Origin: a virus
Lineage: Duplodnaviria > Caudoviricetes
Length of the DNA: 64,000 nt
Strand: one strand, 5' to 3'
Virus record (IMG/VR): IMGVR_UViG_3300005533_000226
Span: 841 to 64,840 of that record
Made by a program: the position numbers and the translations under genes. The notes under the pieces were generated by a model that worked only from the letters and a program-made list of their open reading frames with translations, was not told where the DNA came from and ran no database searches. Positions 2,885 through 25,755 of this stretch are shown here, in pieces. Numbering within the stretch: the stretch's first letter is position 1; the number at the start of each line of letters is the position of its first letter.

Positions 2885-3600
2885 AGCGCGCTTAACCTTT
2901 CCTCGATGGCCTTGGCCGCCGCCTCATAGACCTGTCCGGCCATCTCTTGCCGGTAGGCGCGCACAATCTCGATGCAGCGCCGGTGCATCGCTGCTTCTTG
3001 CCCGGTGTCGGCGGGTAGAGCGGCGAGGGCTTCTATCGCTTCCTTGCAGGCGTCAGCGATCAGCTTGTTGCTGATGTTTGTGAATTGACGGATCGCGCGG
3101 TTGTTTTCTGACTGAATTCGCTTTACCGCTTCCAGCGCCGTTCGCAGCGTGTTGGATTGGGCGGTGTCAATCGGCTTCCAATGTCCGCGCTGATAGCATT
3201 CACGATCATCAAGGTCGCAATAGCACGCCCCGGCAGGTCGTTTCTTTACCGCTTCTTCGTATGAAATCTCGACAGTCGATAGAACGGCTAGTGCTTCTTT
3301 GGCCTCTTGAAGCATCGCGTCATAGGTAGAATTCGGAAGGCGCGAATAGCTTCTGTCGATTTTTTCTTTGACCAGCGCCCAGTAATTTTCCAGTGCTGCG
3401 CGCAGCTTGTCGGTAATTGGCCTCCCGGTGCCGGTGTAAAGGGACAGTGCAGCGAGAAACAAAACCCCAAAGTCGTCTTTTGAAATGCGACCTTCGATGA
3501 TTTTGCGTGGCCCATCGTTCTCAAATTTAGTTGTGGGACAGAATGTCGGGCGGACTCGCGCTTCAATTGCTCCTAGCGTCGCCAGCAGCTTGTCAGTCAT
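2881..3600 (-). CDS. Hypothetical phage protein
   Basis: 239 aa coupled ORF; contains WKPIDTA. Confidence 0.65.
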   Translation of the reverse strand: MTDKLLATLGAIEARVRPTFCPTTKFENDGPRKIIEGRISKDDFGVLFLAALSLYTGTGRPITDKLRAALENYWALVKEKIDRSYSRLPNSTYDAMLQEAKEALAVLSTVEISYEEAVKKRPAGACYCDLDDRECYQRGHWKPIDTAQSNTLRTALEAVKRIQSENNRAIRQFTNISNKLIADACKEAIEALAALPADTGQEAAMHRRCIEIVRAYRQEMAGQVYEAAAKAIEERLSAL

Positions 3601-3863
3601 GGCTTGCCCTTTCTCTTTGGTTGCCTCGGAGTGACGGCCACTATGACGGCACCGCGCGCAAAGCCCTTCCCTGTCACGCGCATCCCGACCGCTGGCATGA
3701 ACGGCGGTGGCGGAGCTGGGCGACGGAATCGCTTCGGCGGCGGATTGATGCCGCCTTTGCTATTCGAGACCGTTGGCAGCGGTTCCGTGCGCGCCTTCTG
3801 CCGCTTCGCGTGCTGCGCGAGCGCGTAGGCGGAGAGACCTTTCGGCTGTGCTTTCTTTTTCAT
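3597..3863 (-). CDS. Basic hypothetical protein
   Basis: ATGA-coupled to the Tas-like gene. Confidence 0.55.
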   Translation of the reverse strand: MKKKAQPKGLSAYALAQHAKRQKARTEPLPTVSNSKGGINPPPKRFRRPAPPPPFMPAVGMRVTGKGFARGAVIVAVTPRQPKRKGKP

Positions 3864-5113
3864 TTCGGATCGCTGTTTGCAGCCCGCTGGATTAACTCAA
3901 GTCTCCGCCACTCTTGGAACATCGCCTTGAGGAATTTTTTCACCACGTAACGGCTCGCTCTGATGGCGGCATATTCAGCGTAGCTTTCGCGCAATTGGCC
4001 ATCCGTCATCACCGGCTCGCGGGCAAATTCAGGATTATTTTGCACCTCATATCTGCATCGGCTGACAAACATTTTTTGCCAGCAGGTCATTTTGTCGTTT
4101 TTTTCGATGTCTTCGCCGACAAGAGGGCGTTTCATATAGCCGACAAGGTTATCCTCTATGAGATGCGCTGCTGCGCGCCGCCGTGGGCTATAGCCAGCAT
4201 TTTCCCATTCTGATTTTGAAAGTCCCGTGGCGCCCATTTTTCGCCACGTCGCGCAGGCGCGCACGGTGCCGTCCGCGCCTTTGACTGGCGCGAGACCAAG
4301 TCGCTTATAGAGCGCAGAGAATGAGCTGTATTTGGAGATGTCGCCGCATTCGCCGATGATGCGAACAAGCGACTTGATGCCAAGTCCTCTGAAGCCTGTA
4401 AACCACGTCGCGATAGGAATTGTTTTTGCGATTTTCCCTAGGTATTTATCCAGCTCCTTGATTTCATTTTCTATTGAATCGCTGAGTGCGATGATCGGAA
4501 GAACAGTGAATTTTTTGTCTTCATCTTCCGGCAGCATATCGCCTGATATAATACGCTTGAGCGCGTCGCCTCCCTTCTTCCAAGATTCTTTTTGCCCAAG
4601 ATGACTATAGCTGCGAGCGCAAAATGCGCGCGCGCGATTGTCGATTCCGATTTTCAATTTTTCCCATGCTCGATGCGTGGGCCATAGAGAAACGATTTGT
4701 TCTATGGGCGTGAAATTTTGATCTGACGCTGGGGCGGTGATTTGGGTGCTGCCAATGGTCCGATCACGGTCAAGCGATGGCTTTTTGAGTTGTGTATTGG
4801 AAGCGGCTTGACCAAAATCTTCGGAAGACATCTTCCCACTGATCGGTGGTTTTTGGCTGGTCTTCCGCGCGGATTTTTTGTCCGCAATAGAGTCGCCCGG
4901 CTGGCTCCCTTTGATATGCGTAAGCTTTGTGGCCGGGCGCGCTGATTTCTCAGCGATAGATTCGGATGGCAGAAGAAATTTGGTTTGCACCAGCGTTGGG
5001 GCCATCCGCGCGGTTTTCTTCCCGCGAACAAGTTTGCCCGGCGTGACCGTTCCGGTTTCGACCGCTATAGTGGCCGGGCATCCGCTTTGCGCGGAAATTT
5101 CATGCTTGCTCAT
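3860..5113 (-). CDS. IS110/Nop-domain RNA-binding protein (TasA-like); no RuvC or HNH domain; N-terminus encoded by the stem-loop array
   Basis: Coiled coil, then WFTGFRGLGIKSLVRIIGECGDISKYSSFSALYKRLGLAP (IS110 Transposase_20-like), YSPRRRA, and C-terminal AIRASRYVVKKFLKAMFQEWR. The likely ATG at 5113 overlaps the upstream stop. Confidence 0.8.
   Translation of the reverse strand: MSKHEISAQSGCPATIAVETGTVTPGKLVRGKKTARMAPTLVQTKFLLPSESIAEKSARPATKLTHIKGSQPGDSIADKKSARKTSQKPPISGKMSSEDFGQAASNTQLKKPSLDRDRTIGSTQITAPASDQNFTPIEQIVSLWPTHRAWEKLKIGIDNRARAFCARSYSHLGQKESWKKGGDALKRIISGDMLPEDEDKKFTVLPIIALSDSIENEIKELDKYLGKIAKTIPIATWFTGFRGLGIKSLVRIIGECGDISKYSSFSALYKRLGLAPVKGADGTVRACATWRKMGATGLSKSEWENAGYSPRRRAAAHLIEDNLVGYMKRPLVGEDIEKNDKMTCWQKMFVSRCRYEVQNNPEFAREPVMTDGQLRESYAEYAAIRASRYVVKKFLKAMFQEWRRLELIQRAANSDPK
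4720..5095 (-). ncRNA. Array of six 46-nt stem-loop guide-like units (TIGR-like stem-loop array)
   Basis: Units at 5035-5080, 4963-5008, 4894-4939, 4822-4867, 4768-4813 and 4720-4765. Each has an 8-bp inverted repeat around exactly 30 nt, with CCA- and YCA-like motifs 18 nt apart. Confidence 0.85.
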
Positions 5114-5628
5114 TGCCAAAAACCTTTCTGTGAATCTTGTTAGCCTGCTGAAGCGAGATGCACTGGCGAACGGTTTTTCCTTCGCTGATTTTTTTCGCGA
5201 TGAGTTTATAGAAGCTGCCCTTGGCGAGCATGTTTCTACCCTGCGCAAAATAGAATTCGCTTTCTTCAAGCAATTCTTCGCGCGTAACGTCGCCAAGTTT
5301 TCTTCCTGAACGCAGCATCATATCAAATAGGATGTTGCGCATTCCTTCCGCCGCCGCAGCCGTGGCTCGCGCCCCTTCTTCGTCCGGCCTGTTGGCGTTA
5401 TCCCAAATTTGTTTTCGCTGAGCGCGAGTGCAATGGCGGATCACGTTGTCACACGCGGTCCAAACCATAGCGTCAAAAAGTCCGCGATATAGTGATGGAT
5501 CGCGTTTGACGCGCTCAACCATCTTCTCGCGCGCTTTCTCAATAATGCCATCACACTCGTCGAGCGACTCCTTGGCCACGTCCCGAATTTTATTTTGAGT
5601 TGCCGGTGTGACGGAAAAAAAAGTTCAT
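5100..5628 (-). CDS. Hypothetical helical protein directly upstream of the Tas-like gene; apparent frameshift in a T8 run near its 5' end
   Basis: Open 5100-5579. The ATG at 5628 (ATGA-coupled) joins this frame only if the A8 at 5615-5622 were A7. Confidence 0.65.
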
Positions 5629-6044
5629 GCTGCCTCCTTCATGCGCTTCTGATTCCGCCGCTGGCCGCTCTTGCAAAGCCAGCGCAGATTGCCGCGCGTA
5701 TTGTTGAGGGTGTCGGTATCTATGTGATCGCCGGTGTGCCGATCCGTTGGACGCGGCAGGCCCATGCGATCAAGGATGACATCGTGCATCATTATGGTGA
5801 CGCGCCGATTTTCTTTGCGCGGACCTACGCGAATACAGCGTCGGGCATAGACGTGATTGCCGTGGCGCTTGTCGCTGATTTTGAATGTCCACGGCCATTG
5901 CATCAGATAGTCATAGTCTTCGGCCGACACGCGCACGCAGTATTGCGCTTTCGCGCCTATCGTGATCGTGCGCACATCCTCGTTGCGAGGATCATAAAGC
6001 TGGATCACCCGGTCGCCGGGGAATGGGATGACATCGCCGCTCAC
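5625..6044 (-). CDS. HNH endonuclease (HNH_3 type)
   Basis: MHDVIL...GDHIDTDTLNNTRGNLR. Confidence 0.85.
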   Translation of the reverse strand: MSGDVIPFPGDRVIQLYDPRNEDVRTITIGAKAQYCVRVSAEDYDYLMQWPWTFKISDKRHGNHVYARRCIRVGPRKENRRVTIMMHDVILDRMGLPRPTDRHTGDHIDTDTLNNTRGNLRWLCKSGQRRNQKRMKEAA

Positions 6045-6667
6045 GTCGAGGCTCCCTGCGTCTCAGTGGGGTCTTCCTCGATGGCGCCCAGCTCGCGCAG
6101 CTTCAGAAAGAGCCGCTTGGTGCGTTGCATATCTTGCCAAGCGTTGTGAAAGCCGCTGCGCGGTTCTTCGCTCAGAAGCTTCACACAAGCCTCATCGAGC
6201 GATGGCCACTTAAATGTGCCGTTCTTGCTGCCGTTCTTCGGCGGGATTTTGCAGAGCTGCGTTGACAGCTTCATCGTGTCGAGCCACGTCAGGCCCGGCC
6301 TCAGCCAGTTGTCTGTCGGCTTTCCGCGCCGCAGGATAGCGCCAGCGATCAGGTCTTTGTCGAAATCGACGCCGTGCCCGATAACGTGAGTGGCTTGGCT
6401 GGCGAGGCCGATGAGCATTCCAAGTGCCGTGACCTCGCTGACGCCCCGCCGGGCGGCCTCCTTGCTGCTGATTCCGTGGATCAGCGCAGCGCCTTCGCGG
6501 ATTTTCCGCCCCTCAGCGCGCACTTTGATATAGAAGAATTCCTGCGCCCAGCCCTCATCATCGAACAGCTCAGCAGCGATGGCGACCGGCCACGGTTGCG
6601 CCGGATCATCAAGCGCAAGATGCTGCTTGATCAGGTCGCTGCTTTCGCAATCGAAGGCGAGGAACAT
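6041..6667 (-). CDS. DEDDh 3'-5' exonuclease (DnaQ-like)
   Basis: AFDCES, GHGVDFD and HNAWQD motifs. Confidence 0.85.
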   Translation of the reverse strand: MFLAFDCESSDLIKQHLALDDPAQPWPVAIAAELFDDEGWAQEFFYIKVRAEGRKIREGAALIHGISSKEAARRGVSEVTALGMLIGLASQATHVIGHGVDFDKDLIAGAILRRGKPTDNWLRPGLTWLDTMKLSTQLCKIPPKNGSKNGTFKWPSLDEACVKLLSEEPRSGFHNAWQDMQRTKRLFLKLRELGAIEEDPTETQGAST

Positions 6668-24544: not shown

Positions 24545-24868
24545 ATGCCAAAACGTGCTGAGGTATATGCGGCGGTTGATAGCGAGCGCGACTATCAGGA
24601 CGCGCAGCGTGGAAATGCAGCTCGCCACCACGGCTATCAGGCCGGAGTCAATCATCCCGCCGAATTCATCGTCTATATGCGCAAATGCCTTCGCGACGCG
24701 GAAGAAGCGATCTATCGCGGCTCAACCGGAATTGAACAGGCATTGCCGTTCATTCGCAAGGTAACGGCGCTTGGTGTGGCCTGCATGGAACAGCACGGCG
24801 CTCCTATGCGCGATGTTCAATCGTTGCATCCATTCATTGATCCAAATGAAAAAATGTCGCCACGCTGA
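24545..24868 (+). CDS. All-alpha NTP-pyrophosphatase-like hypothetical protein
   Basis: VYAAVDSERDYQD...IRKVTALGVACMEQHGAP. Confidence 0.55.
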   Translation: MPKRAEVYAAVDSERDYQDAQRGNAARHHGYQAGVNHPAEFIVYMRKCLRDAEEAIYRGSTGIEQALPFIRKVTALGVACMEQHGAPMRDVQSLHPFIDPNEKMSPR

Positions 24869-25049
24869 CGCTTATCGCGCGATCCGCGCGCCACGCTGCA
24901 ACGGCGGTAAGCCGTGCGACGTGTGCAAGGCCAAATGGAACATCAGAAAGGCGTTGCAAGGCTTGCCCATCGAGCAAGCGCGCCGGGCGCTACGCGCCGC
25001 TGCGATCATTCTCGGAATCGAGTAACACTATGACCGGCGGAGGCTGAAG

Positions 25050-25244
25050 ATGGGTTTGCCCAAGACGATTTACGTGAAGATGGATGGCGATGGCGATGAC
25101 GCCATTCTGATCGCTGATGAGAATGTGGCGCCGTTGCTCGATCCAAGCGACATTGAGGATGGTATCGAGGTCGGCACGTATCAGTTGGTCGAGACCAAGA
25201 ACGCCAAATTTCAGGTAGTCACTGAGCCGGTGAAAGAGACGTGA
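25050..25244 (+). CDS. Small acidic hypothetical protein
   Basis: GGAGG RBS. Confidence 0.55.
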   Translation: MGLPKTIYVKMDGDGDDAILIADENVAPLLDPSDIEDGIEVGTYQLVETKNAKFQVVTEPVKET

Positions 25245-25372
25245 GCGACAACCCATACGCTCGCGAGCTGATCACCGCCAGCAAGTCGCCAGTCACCATA
25301 TGCAGATTGTCACGTAATGACGTTTGAACAGGTAGTCGCTGCTGTCGAGCGTGCTGCCGCTGAGGTGGCATC

Positions 25373-25684
25373 ATGGCCAGAATGGAAGCGCAACGCTTCA
25401 ACAAGGAAGCGCGCACAGTGAGCAAGCATACCCGCCTCAAGATAGTAGCTGTGCTGGCCCTCATCGCCATGGCACCAATTACATTGGCCTATCTGATGCA
25501 AGTCTGCTTGGTGCTGGTATCGGATGGCATCCAATGGTGTGTGGAAGGCAGAGCGTGGACACGCCCATTCGTGCGTGCATCCGAATTGGTCGAGCTGCAC
25601 GTTGCGCGTTGGCTTGGTGTCGATGCCGATACGATGTATGAAGAATGGCGCGAGCATATGCGCCGTCGAGCGGACACCCCCTAG
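25373..25684 (+). CDS. Hypothetical membrane protein
   Basis: Last plus-strand ORF before the candidate cos. Confidence 0.45.
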   Translation: MARMEAQRFNKEARTVSKHTRLKIVAVLALIAMAPITLAYLMQVCLVLVSDGIQWCVEGRAWTRPFVRASELVELHVARWLGVDADTMYEEWREHMRRRADTP

Positions 25685-25755
25685 GGGGGGTCGCATCCTG
25701 AATCATTATGGGAGGCGGCAACCGCGCTGGGCCTCACGCAGGGATTTTTTATTTG
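25677..25755. other. Candidate cos (cohesive-end) region
   Basis: CCCCCTAGGGGGGG run, then AACCGCGCTGGGCCTCACGCAGGGATTTTTT. This layout is typical between the gp74-like HNH and terS in HK97-like phages. Confidence 0.45.

What the first reader, a model, noticed from the sequence alone, without database searches (positions are those of the whole stretch)
4869..5095. A second class of short hairpin sits immediately 5' of guide units 1-4
Seen (minus strand): TCCGC-gcaaa-GCGGA (5095-5081), CGCGG-gaagaaaa-CCGCG (5026-5009), CGCTGA-gaaa-TCAGCG (4955-4940) and GCGGA-caaaaaa-TCCGC (4885-4869). Each is a GC stem with an A-rich loop lying 0-1 nt before the large stem. Units 5 and 6 lack one. The U1 and U3 stems are near-identical (GCCCGGC), suggesting growth by duplication followed by spacer change. 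Inference: these are processing or 5'-protection signals, or a docking site for a partner protein. I do not recall this two-hairpin unit being described for such arrays.
Basis: partly seen in the sequence, partly recalled or inferred. Interest (0 to 1): 0.7.

Follow-up and report, generated by a model that had tools for sequence, protein, structure and literature searches.

The report
Small linker hairpins in TIGR array
Four short, stable RNA hairpins sit flush against the front of guide-RNA hairpins in a prophage's TIGR-TasA system; the guide array is a known kind, but these accessory hairpins recur in relatives, seem undescribed, and may bear on how the guides are cut out and protected.

Summary
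On the minus strand, four 5-6-bp GC hairpins (5095-5081, 5026-5009, 4955-4940, 4885-4869) end 0-1 nt before four of five perfect 8-bp stems that each close a loop of exactly 30 nt.

The large hairpins are not new. They are a five-unit stem-loop TIGR array (box C, 9-nt spacer A, box D, 4 nt, box C, 9-nt spacer B, box D). It lies in the 5' part of a nuclease-free tasA gene in a prophage-like region, a system described in 2025-2026.

The small hairpins are a real, recurrent feature of the family:
- In 126 related loci, 118 of 442 distinct units carry a hairpin of at least 5 bp within 0-2 nt of the main stem's 5' side.
- 47 of 65 long linkers carry one, against 12% of random positions and 7% of shuffled linkers.
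- With perfect stems the 3' side has 5 of 351, against 86 of 351 on the 5' side.
- 61 of 80 tetraloops are GNRA or UNCG on the gene strand, against 1 of the reverse-complement classes, so they act as RNA.

They are optional, array-specific and evolutionarily labile. Their function is inferred: a stacked 5' cap or boundary element for guide maturation. I found no description in the TIGR paper texts that I could read.

The parts
5081..5095 (-). Small hairpin h1: 5-bp GC stem, 5-nt loop (GNRA plus one A), flush (0 nt) with U1. It precedes the first unit of the array.
5035..5080 (-). tigRNA unit U1: 8-bp stem and 30-nt loop (box C CA, spacer A 9 nt, degenerate box D, 4 nt, box C-like CCG, spacer B 9 nt, box D)
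   Evidence: covariance model R1 scores it 14.1 bits
5027..5034 (-). Single-stranded leader 1 (8 nt, one G, contains CUU) between U1 and h2
   Evidence: family leader consensus
5009..5026 (-). Small hairpin h2: 5-bp stem, 8-nt A-rich loop, flush with U2
4963..5008 (-). tigRNA unit U2, the best match to the family consensus (box D UG, box C CCA, box D UG)
   Evidence: R1 22.6 bits, E 0.006, the top hit in the 64-kb window
4956..4962 (-). Single-stranded leader 2 (7 nt, no G)
4940..4955 (-). Small hairpin h3: 6-bp stem, GAAA (GNRA) tetraloop, flush with U3
4894..4939 (-). tigRNA unit U3; its 5' arm matches that of U1 at 7 of 8 positions
   Evidence: R1 14.2 bits
4886..4893 (-). Single-stranded leader 3 (8 nt, no G)
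4869..4885 (-). Small hairpin h4: 5-bp stem, 7-nt A-rich loop, 1 nt before U4
4822..4867 (-). tigRNA unit U4, the most degenerate boxes of the five
   Evidence: not recovered by R1 at E <= 10
4814..4821 (-). Short linker (8 nt) between U4 and U5; it has the leader only and no small hairpin
4768..4813 (-). tigRNA unit U5, with no small hairpin
   Evidence: R1 9.6 bits
3860..5113 (-). tasA open frame (417 aa from the ATG at 5113, which overlaps the end of the upstream gene). The folded Nop-type core is about 3860-4708. The first ~135 codons run through the array and are predicted to be disordered if translated.
5100..5579 (-). Upstream companion gene (159 aa, no family match). A homologue lies directly upstream of tasA in 28 of 126 related loci.

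Best explanation
The stretch is the guide array of a prophage TIGR-TasA system. It has five stem-loop tigRNA units, each an 8-bp stem of its own sequence closing a 30-nt loop that carries two 9-nt spacers framed by box C and box D. The array is embedded in the 5' part of the tasA transcript. The four small hairpins are optional RNA-level linker modules that belong to the unit downstream of them. The layout of a linker is: previous stem, a 6-8-nt G-poor single-stranded leader, a small GC hairpin, then the next main stem with no gap. Shown: the position, the strand, the structure, the recurrence in relatives and the optional nature. Inferred: the small helix stacks coaxially on the base of the main stem. 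A host RNase cuts the precursor in the leader, as published for other stem-loop arrays ('processed at linker regions', CUU motif at the stem base). The hairpin then stays as a very stable 5' end structure. In that position it would fix the 5' boundary, shield the guide from 5'-end-dependent decay or trimming, and keep neighbouring units with similar stems (U1 and U3) folding separately. My odds by part: identity as a stem-loop TIGR-TasA array about 0.95; small hairpins as a selected RNA-level accessory of the downstream unit about 0.85; the retained 5' cap/boundary function about 0.35. The confidence given is for the statement as a whole.
For: Identity of the system:
- The protein core matches NCBIfam NF052498 'TIGR-Tas system RNA-guided endonuclease' (E 1.2e-14).
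- Its family profile hits PDB 9MTY (E 3.4e-9).
- Its AlphaFold model (pLDDT 89.8) has TIGR-TasR and TasH structures as its best PDB matches, followed by IS621 recombinase and Nop5.
- No nuclease domain was found.
- 351 distinct units from 126 related loci give the consensus stem-GGC | CA N9 YG nAAC CCA N9 Y | GCC-stem. This is box C = CCA and box D = UG as defined by Faure et al. 2025 (PMC12045711, passage seen; stem-loop arrays in section 9).
- The loop motif occurs 517 times on the gene strand and 10 times on the antisense strand. Isolated mismatches inside helices are G-U 95 against A-C 27.

Small hairpins:
- Perfect stems of at least 5 bp lie 0-2 nt 5' of the main stem in 86 of 351 units, against 5 of 351 on the 3' side and 3.1% of random positions.
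- With one G-U allowed the count is 118 of 442 units. 80 of these have tetraloops: 52 GNRA, 9 UNCG, 1 reverse-complement GNRA.
- Of 120 hairpins found within 40 nt upstream, 62 end exactly flush with the main stem, and the leader is mostly 6-7 nt.
- They precede first units as often as internal units (41 of 213 and 43 of 228), so they go with the downstream unit.
- Linker lengths are bimodal, about 5-8 nt and about 18-28 nt.
- 59 of 75 linkers of 15-40 nt fold at -3 kcal/mol or better, with mean -8.0 against -3.25 for shuffles.
- 47 of 65 linkers of 18-40 nt have the hairpin, against 12.1% of random positions and 6.7% of shuffled linkers.
- In the window itself P = 7e-6.
- In orthologous hairpins the loops change faster (26 of 99 nt) than the stems (31 of 147 pairs changed), and loops switch between GNRA variants.
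Against: - There are no RNA data: no end mapping and no expression evidence for this locus.
- The hairpins are dispensable for the system. Whole related arrays lack them (L009 0 of 13, L046 0 of 13, L029 0 of 7), as does U5 here.
- Their presence does not track main-stem length (mean 9.97 with, 10.05 without, P = 0.68). A simple 'helix extension for short stems' role is therefore not supported.
- The trait is scattered on the TasA tree (5 changes for 8 hairpin-rich against 28 hairpin-free arrays; shuffled mean 7.4). This argues against tight co-evolution with the protein.
- Orthologous covariation is thin: 3 double changes and 8 single changes keep the pair, against 20 single changes that break it, in 25 comparisons.
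- Two of the four window hairpins have 7-8-nt A-rich loops instead of the family's tetraloops. These loops also read as Lys codons in the open tasA frame, so a coding influence cannot be excluded here.
- The CUU motif published as a processing mark is in only 1 of the 4 window leaders and in 83 of 440 family trailers.
Confidence: 0.5

Rival explanations
1. The hairpins are pure folding insulators or spacers. They keep long linkers structured so that adjacent units fold on their own and adjacent TasA dimers have room. They are trimmed away during maturation and play no part in the mature guide.
For: They are optional and array-specific. Linker length is bimodal and the long class is the structured one. 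The U1 and U3 arms are near-identical, so mispairing between units is possible. Xu et al. 2026 (bioRxiv 10.64898/2026.09.09.750476, sections 7 and 11 read) report that linker length is clade-specific and that flanking context sharpens processing.
Against: An insulator need not abut the next stem, yet 62 of 120 hairpins are exactly flush and 84 of 120 lie within 2 nt. They also precede first units, where there is no upstream unit to insulate from (41 of 213), including h1 here.
Confidence: 0.22
2. The hairpins are a processing determinant for a helix-recognising host RNase. The flush small helix and the main stem form one stacked helix of 13-19 bp with two single-stranded flaps at the nick, and this structure directs the cleavage.
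For: The junction is flush. [quoted passage not shown] 2026, sections 10 and 13 seen). Faure et al. note that plain arrays lack duplexes long enough for RNase III (Discussion).
Against: Units without the hairpin are common in the same arrays and are presumably processed too. No enzyme is implicated by any result here.
Confidence: 0.1
3. The hairpins are docking sites for a partner protein. Candidates are the conserved upstream companion protein, a TasA extension, or a phage N-like or Nus-type antitermination factor. In the last case the leader plus hairpin would resemble a boxA-boxB nut site and would keep transcription going through a long structured array.
For: A companion gene lies directly upstream of tasA in 28 of 126 loci, and hairpin-bearing units are somewhat more frequent there (38 of 119 against 76 of 401; odds ratio 2.0, P = 0.004, not corrected for relatedness). 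h1 is a 15-nt hairpin with a 5-bp stem and a GNRA-like pentaloop; the resemblance to lambda boxB is recalled from memory, not tested.
Against: Loci with the companion gene can lack hairpins entirely (L053 0 of 7, L060 0 of 10, L089 0 of 6). Stem sequences are not conserved, and loops include both GNRA and UNCG classes, which suits a generic stable cap better than a specific protein site. The trait is scattered on the TasA tree.
Confidence: 0.08
4. The hairpins are a by-product with no function of their own. They could be remnants of array growth or decay (stems of lost units closed by a short loop), or a side effect of this stretch also being read as the N-terminal tail of TasA.
For: The array lies in an open frame continuous with tasA, and the unit periods are all multiples of three (72, 69, 72, 54). 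The same is seen in L049. The window's hairpin loops encode Lys-rich peptides. The trait is labile.
Against: 61 of 80 tetraloops belong to the two extra-stable classes on one strand only. The strong 5' against 3' asymmetry and the flush junction indicate selection on RNA structure. Across the family the arrays are not constrained as coding: spacing modulo 3 is 60/55/37, and 71-141 of 351 units have stops in each frame. The peptides encoded by the hairpins in L049 are unrelated to those here.
Confidence: 0.08
5. The hairpins are DNA-level elements: cruciforms, iterons or recombination sites.
For: Perfect inverted repeats can in principle form in DNA, and the gene family was annotated 'transposase'.
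Against: Stem sequences differ at every copy, so there is no common duplex binding site. G-U exceeds A-C inside helices, and the strand-specific GNRA and UNCG loops point to a folded transcript. The protein folds like Tas RNA-guided proteins.
Confidence: 0.02

Closest known systems
Stem-loop TIGR arrays with nuclease-free TasA (Faure et al. 2025, PMC12045711, section 9 and Fig. 7 legend; Xu et al. 2026, bioRxiv 10.64898/2026.09.09.750476; Guan et al. 2026, bioRxiv 10.64898/2026.08.11.744272)
   Same: Tandem hairpins with variable palindromic stems. The loop holds two ~9-nt spacers framed by box C (CCA) and box D (UG). The Tas protein has a solo Nop domain. The setting is a phage or prophage. 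Arrays lie upstream, downstream or inside the 5' end of tas in frame. There is a linker between units where processing occurs.
   Different: The papers, as far as I could read their text and legends, treat the linker as a length variable with a CUU motif. [quoted passage not shown] Here, and in about a quarter of the units of this clade, the long linkers hold a separate GNRA- or UNCG-capped hairpin flush with the next stem. The window's box motifs are partly degenerate.
Dual-repeat TIGR arrays (TaTasR, SpTasH)
   Same: The same box C, spacer, box D tandem logic and a homologous Nop-domain protein (Foldseek top hits 9MTY, 9VZX, 9W04).
   Different: Those have fixed edge and loop repeats, 36-nt guides, protein-borne Y/H processing, nuclease domains and no variable stems.
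IS110-family bridge RNA and recombinase (IS621)
   Same: A homologous RNA-binding domain (8WT6 and 8WT9 among the Foldseek hits; weak Pfam Transposase_20 hit) and guide segments presented in loops closed by helices.
   Different: No RuvC/DEDD domain here, an array of single-loop units instead of one two-loop RNA, and no transposon ends.
Lambda-type nut sites (boxA plus boxB hairpin) and boxA antitermination upstream of CRISPR arrays (both recalled from memory, not tested)
   Same: A short single-stranded pyrimidine-rich element followed by a 15-nt GC hairpin with a GNRA-like loop, lying in a phage transcript that must be read through.
   Different: The element is repeated before every unit, the stems are not conserved, most loops are plain tetraloops, and no N-like protein was identified.

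Membership tests
TIGR-Tas system, stem-loop array class with TasA | An adjacent protein with the Tas/Nop-type RNA-binding domain and coiled coil | tested here: met
   NCBIfam NF052498 TIGR_Tas_endo: E 1.2e-14, 54.8 bits (below the equivalog cut-off of 100), residues 150-403 of 417. Profile of 40 homologues against PDB chains: 9mty_A, E 3.4e-9. AlphaFold model pLDDT 89.8. Foldseek top 10 are all TIGR-TasR or TasH structures, followed by IS621 and Nop5.
TIGR-Tas system, stem-loop array class with TasA | TasA subtype: no HNH or RuvC nuclease domain | tested here: met
   Pfam and PHROGs find no nuclease domain. The part N-terminal to the core is the array itself, and the 27 residues just before the core are modelled as disordered.
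TIGR-Tas system, stem-loop array class with TasA | Tandem units, each with two 8-12-nt spacers framed by box C (CCA) and box D (UG) | tested here: met
   The family consensus from 351 units fits exactly. In the window the geometry is exact (two 9-nt spacers in a 30-nt loop) but the boxes are partly degenerate: first box C fits in 3 of 5 units, first box D YG in 2 of 5, second box C as CCA in 1 of 5 (UCA in 3), second box D YG in 4 of 5. The family covariance model finds U2, U3, U1 and U5 but not U4.
TIGR-Tas system, stem-loop array class with TasA | Variable but consistently palindromic flanks in place of edge repeats | tested here: met
   Five different perfect 8-bp stems. In 429 family units, stem pairs 1-9 are 74-100% Watson-Crick.
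TIGR-Tas system, stem-loop array class with TasA | The array is transcribed and processed into single-unit guides bound by Tas | not testable with these tools
   No RNA run was listed for this DNA.
TIGR-Tas system, stem-loop array class with TasA | The spacers direct binding to both strands of a DNA target | tested here: inconclusive
   The own genome has no match with 0-1 mismatch for the 5 units in 2 geometries and gaps of 0-2. There were 7 hits with 2 mismatches, against about 4 expected by my own estimate. Other phages and plasmids were not searched.
Lambda-type nut site (boxA-boxB) | A conserved boxB stem-loop sequence bound by an N-type arginine-rich peptide, with a boxA consensus upstream | not tested
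   This is only a resemblance in size and loop type, recalled from memory. The stems are not conserved among copies. No N-like protein was looked for.

The most novel reading that the evidence does not exclude
In a sizeable subset of stem-loop TIGR arrays the working guide would be a two-hairpin RNA. A GNRA- or UNCG-capped mini-helix stacked on the base of the main stem would be kept in the mature tigRNA, where it defines the cleavage point in the G-poor leader and blocks 5'-end-dependent decay. This would give the first concrete cis element for the still unknown maturation pathway of stem-loop tigRNAs. Because the array here sits inside the tasA message, it would also act as a switch that decides whether a transcript yields guides or protein.
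Probability: 0.25. Interest if true: 0.6.

Novelty: new variant of a known kind. Interest (0 to 1): 0.42.

Why it matters
TIGR-Tas systems are compact RNA-guided DNA binders with no PAM requirement, and they are being developed as tools. How stem-loop guides are cut out of their precursor is an acknowledged open point: the Tas proteins of this class lack the processing loop of the dual-repeat systems, and only a CUU motif and 'flanking context' have been implicated.

A recurrent, strand-specific, very stable hairpin placed flush against the 5' side of the guide stem is a concrete cis element that can be mutated to address that question. It could also be a useful design feature for multiplexed guide arrays, for insulation or 5' protection.

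For genome annotation, the result shows that this 'transposase-like' phage gene and its odd low-complexity N-terminal extension are a TasA gene with an embedded guide array.

Tried and rejected
- **Rfam** (3500-6500, E up to 10): only chance-level hits, no family.
- **Protein repeat.** I first considered that the ~23-aa peptide repeat seen in homologues' N-termini was a true protein repeat. I rejected this because the peptide motif is simply the box consensus read in one frame, the window reads its array in another frame, spacing modulo 3 across the family is 60/55/37, and stops occur in every frame. Inside open frames that continue into tasA the spacing is 41/22/17, against 25/27/21 outside. 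That enrichment could reflect real translation or ascertainment, so it is left open.
- **DNA-level iterons or a transposon.** Rejected.
- **RNA evidence.** No RNA holder was listed for 3860-5600.
- **Spacer targets in the own genome.** Nothing better than 2 mismatches.
- **Link between hairpin presence and main-stem length.** None.
- **Link with the companion gene.** Weak and uncorrected for relatedness.
- **Clustering on the TasA tree.** Weak. The tree used 49 loci with at least 4 units and a BLAST match of at least 150 aa; 13 arrays with intermediate hairpin content were left unlabelled.
- **A fixed '5 bp + tetraloop' column model.** It fitted only 14 of 65 long linkers because stem lengths vary, so a flexible search with controls was used instead.
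- **Promoter and terminator scan of 3500-6200.** Counts as expected by chance.
- **More units elsewhere in the window.** None were found by the covariance model.
- **The second close pair of 8-bp/30-nt repeats (contig C19).** It has no box motifs; from its sequence I read it as lying inside an ordinary coding region, which no call tested.
- **First attempt at search for related loci with the single protein in viral contigs.** It found nothing; the alignment-based scans succeeded.
Full report
**What is in the sequence**

Read on the minus strand, 5095-4768 has a strict plan.
- Five perfect 8-bp inverted repeats each enclose exactly 30 nt. They are U1 5080-5035, U2 5008-4963, U3 4939-4894, U4 4867-4822 and U5 4813-4768.
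- Every stem has its own sequence. The U1 and U3 arms agree at 7 of 8 positions.
- Four units are preceded by a small GC hairpin that ends 0, 0, 0 and 1 nt before the main stem:
  - h1 5095-5081: 5 bp, 5-nt loop.
  - h2 5026-5009: 5 bp, 8-nt loop.
  - h3 4955-4940: 6 bp, GAAA loop.
  - h4 4885-4869: 5 bp, 7-nt loop.
- Between a main stem and the next small hairpin lie 7-8 nt with at most one G.
- U4 and U5 are joined by such an 8-nt piece alone.

RNAfold recovers all nine helices (z = -4.73). A hairpin of this kind ends within 2 nt of only 3.5% of window positions, so four or more of five has P = 7e-6. The window has nine 8-bp/30-nt repeats, five of them here. The 3.28-Mb genome has about 184, and this is the only cluster of three or more. 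A second close pair on another contig has no box motifs. One correction: 'unit 6' (4707-4682: 7-bp stem, 12-nt loop) is not a unit.

**What the large hairpins are**

The stretch lies in an open frame (ATG 5113 to stop 3860, 417 aa).
- Its last ~270 residues match phage 'transposase' PHROGs.
- They match Pfam Transposase_20 weakly.
- They match NCBIfam NF052498 'TIGR-Tas system RNA-guided endonuclease' (E 1.2e-14, below the equivalog cut-off).
- A full HMMER scan found 1,734 representatives with E <= 1e-3, many with long low-complexity N-terminal extensions.
- A profile of 40 of them hits PDB 9MTY.
- The AlphaFold model of the core (pLDDT 89.8) is most similar to the TIGR-TasR and TasH cryo-EM structures, then to IS621 bridge recombinase and Nop5.
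- No nuclease domain is present, so this is a TasA.

I fetched 46 related loci from species genomes, mostly Rhizobiales and other Alphaproteobacteria, and 80 from viral contigs.
- In these loci, inverted repeats of at least 7 bp show a spike at a gap of exactly 30 nt: 502, against about 75 for neighbouring gap lengths.
- 351 distinct units give the consensus stem-GGC | CA-N9-YG-nAAC-CCA-N9-Y | GCC-stem.
- This is box C (CCA), spacer A, box D (UG), a short loop, box C, spacer B, box D as defined by Faure et al. 2025. I read sections 4, 6, 9, 10 and 24 and the figure legends of PMC12045711.
- Their section 9 describes exactly this 'stem-loop array' class with TasA.
- The motif is on the gene strand 517 times and on the other strand 10 times. 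Isolated mismatches inside the helices are G-U 95 against A-C 27, so the gene-sense transcript is what folds.
- A covariance model built from 140 family units ranks U2 as the best hit in the whole window (22.6 bits). It also finds U3, U1 and U5, but not U4, and finds no further unit elsewhere.
- The window's boxes are partly degenerate.

**Coding or not**

The peptide repeat in homologues' N-termini (G-[HQ]-x3-[DE]-T-[QH]-x3-A) is the box consensus read in one frame.
- The window reads its array in another frame.
- Across the family, unit spacing modulo 3 is 60/55/37, and 71-141 of 351 units carry a stop in each frame. The arrays are therefore not generally under coding constraint.
- In this window the frame stays open, the periods are 72, 69, 72 and 54, and the ATG at 5113 overlaps the end of the upstream gene.
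- In the related locus L049 the same layout recurs: a companion gene, an ATGA overlap, then a 503-aa frame running through nine or so units.
- Xu et al. 2026 report such in-frame intragenic arrays at the 5' end of tas. I read sections 5, 11 and 30 and passages of other sections of bioRxiv 10.64898/2026.09.09.750476.
- Inside open frames that continue into tasA, spacing is 41/22/17, against 25/27/21 outside. This fits real translation in some loci but could be ascertainment.
- I leave open whether the N-terminal ~135 residues are made.

**The small hairpins in relatives**

This is the question of the finding.
- With perfect stems of at least 5 bp, loops of 3-9 nt and an end 0-2 nt before the main stem, 86 of 351 distinct units have one. 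The mirror position on the 3' side has 5 of 351, and random positions in the same loci 3.1%.
- Allowing one G-U gives 118 of 442 units.
  - 80 have tetraloops: 52 GNRA, 9 UNCG, 18 other, and 1 that would be GNRA on the opposite strand.
  - Stems are 5-6 bp in 94 of 118.
- Of 120 hairpins found anywhere within 40 nt upstream, 62 end exactly flush with the main stem.
- Linker lengths are bimodal, about 5-8 nt and about 18-28 nt.
- The long linkers read as a G-poor leader (A, A/C, C, C, N, U, U, Y), then the hairpin, then the next stem.
- 59 of 75 linkers of 15-40 nt fold at -3 kcal/mol or better, with mean -8.0 against -3.25 for shuffles.
- Choosing linkers by length alone (18-40 nt), 47 of 65 have the hairpin, against 12.1% of random positions and 6.7% of shuffled linkers.
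- Hairpins precede first units as often as internal ones (41 of 213 and 43 of 228). Last units are followed by a hairpin at leader distance in only 22 of 215. The element therefore belongs to the unit downstream of it, as h1 does here.

**Limits and contrary results**

- The element is optional and array-specific. Some arrays are hairpin-rich (L008 6 of 7, L021 8 of 11, L049 7 of 8, L056 5 of 5). Others have none (L009 0 of 13, L046 0 of 13, L029 0 of 7, L053 0 of 7). 59 of 88 loci with units have at least one.
- It does not depend on main-stem length (P = 0.68).
- On a FastTree of 49 TasA cores, hairpin-rich arrays (8) against hairpin-free arrays (28) need 5 changes. Shuffles give a mean of 7.4, and P is about 0.01. 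The trait is gained and lost often.
- Orthologous comparisons are few (25). 116 pairs are unchanged, 3 double changes and 8 single changes keep the pair, and 20 single changes break it. Loops change at 26 of 99 positions, often from one GNRA to another.
- The evidence for structure therefore rests mainly on the many independent copies with different sequences, not on orthologous covariation.
- In the window, two of the four loops are 7-8 nt and A-rich, which is unusual for the family.
- The isolated Rhizobium phage RHph_X2_25 has at least 11 units around its unannotated tasA but short linkers.

**How it most likely works**

Shown:
- an RNA-level, strand-specific and very stable mini-helix;
- it is placed flush on the 5' side of the main stem;
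- it follows a conserved G-poor single-stranded leader.

Published for other stem-loop arrays:
- guides are released by cuts in the linker (Faure, Fig. 7 legend);
- the boundaries often fall at a CUU at the stem base;

Inferred:
- the cut falls in the leader;
- the small hairpin stays on the 5' end of the downstream guide, stacked on its stem;
- there it fixes the boundary, protects against 5'-end-dependent RNases, and keeps neighbouring units folding independently.

The flush junction and the presence before first units favour this over a pure spacer or insulator role. The optional nature and the scattered phylogeny argue against an essential recognition element or a co-evolved protein site. 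Rivals are listed with odds.

**Novelty**

The array and the protein are an already described kind of system. For the linker hairpin I found no description in the following:
- the main text and legends of Faure 2025;
- the sections and legends I read of Xu 2026, which mentions linker length, CUU, and secondary hairpins only inside the loop between the spacers;
- passages of Guan 2026;
- a library search for tigRNA with tetraloop. It returned only Faure 2025, where the word refers to the loop repeat. A wider search adding GNRA and 'linker hairpin' showed no TIGR paper among its 15 listed of 187.

Supplementary figures (S12-S13 of Faure; Extended Data images of Xu) could not be seen and might show them.

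I rate the finding as a new variant of a known kind, of moderate interest.

Noticed in passing
window 5100-5579 (-): A 159-aa gene with no Pfam, PHROG or NCBIfam match ends 14 nt inside the tasA frame. Homologues lie directly upstream of tasA in 28 of 126 related loci, for example L049 1805-2338 with an ATGA overlap. It may be a conserved TasA companion of unknown function. An earlier scan note (e1-6123029) also mentions a gene that always precedes tas.
   Followed up: partly
window 3860-5113 (-); L049 2335-3846: The guide array lies inside an open frame continuous with tasA. Unit periods are all multiples of three here (72, 69, 72, 54) and for the first four intervals in L049 (69, 69, 72, 69). 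If translated, it gives a ~135-aa disordered, Lys/Arg/Ser-rich N-terminal tail, so cutting out guides would destroy the tasA message.
   Followed up: partly
L128 (MW960032.1 22553-28206), units at L128 1017-3285: The isolated Rhizobium phage RHph_X2_25 (host Sinorhizobium americanum) carries at least 11 units (E <= 0.0025) upstream of, inside the 5' end of, and downstream of a CDS annotated 'hypothetical protein' (record 24663-25718). This CDS is a TasA homologue and lies between 'repressor protein C' and an XRE-family gene, in the lysogeny-control region. It is a culturable system for experiments, but its linkers are short and lack the small hairpins.
   Followed up: partly
It has no box motifs and its meaning is unknown.
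   Followed up: no
window 4864-4873, 5006-5013, 4937-4942: The junctions between the small hairpins and the main stems are themselves short CG-rich palindromes (8-10 nt). These could allow alternative pairing between the 3' arm of the small hairpin and the start of the main stem. Whether this is composition or a switch was not examined.
   Followed up: no
window 5625-6044 (-): The HNH-endonuclease-like ORF next to the locus also gives a marginal Pfam Barwin hit (E 9e-5, 22.8 bits against a cut-off of 21), which is probably spurious. The next ORF, 6041-6667, matches a phage DNA polymerase exonuclease subunit PHROG. This fits a prophage replication module.
   Followed up: no
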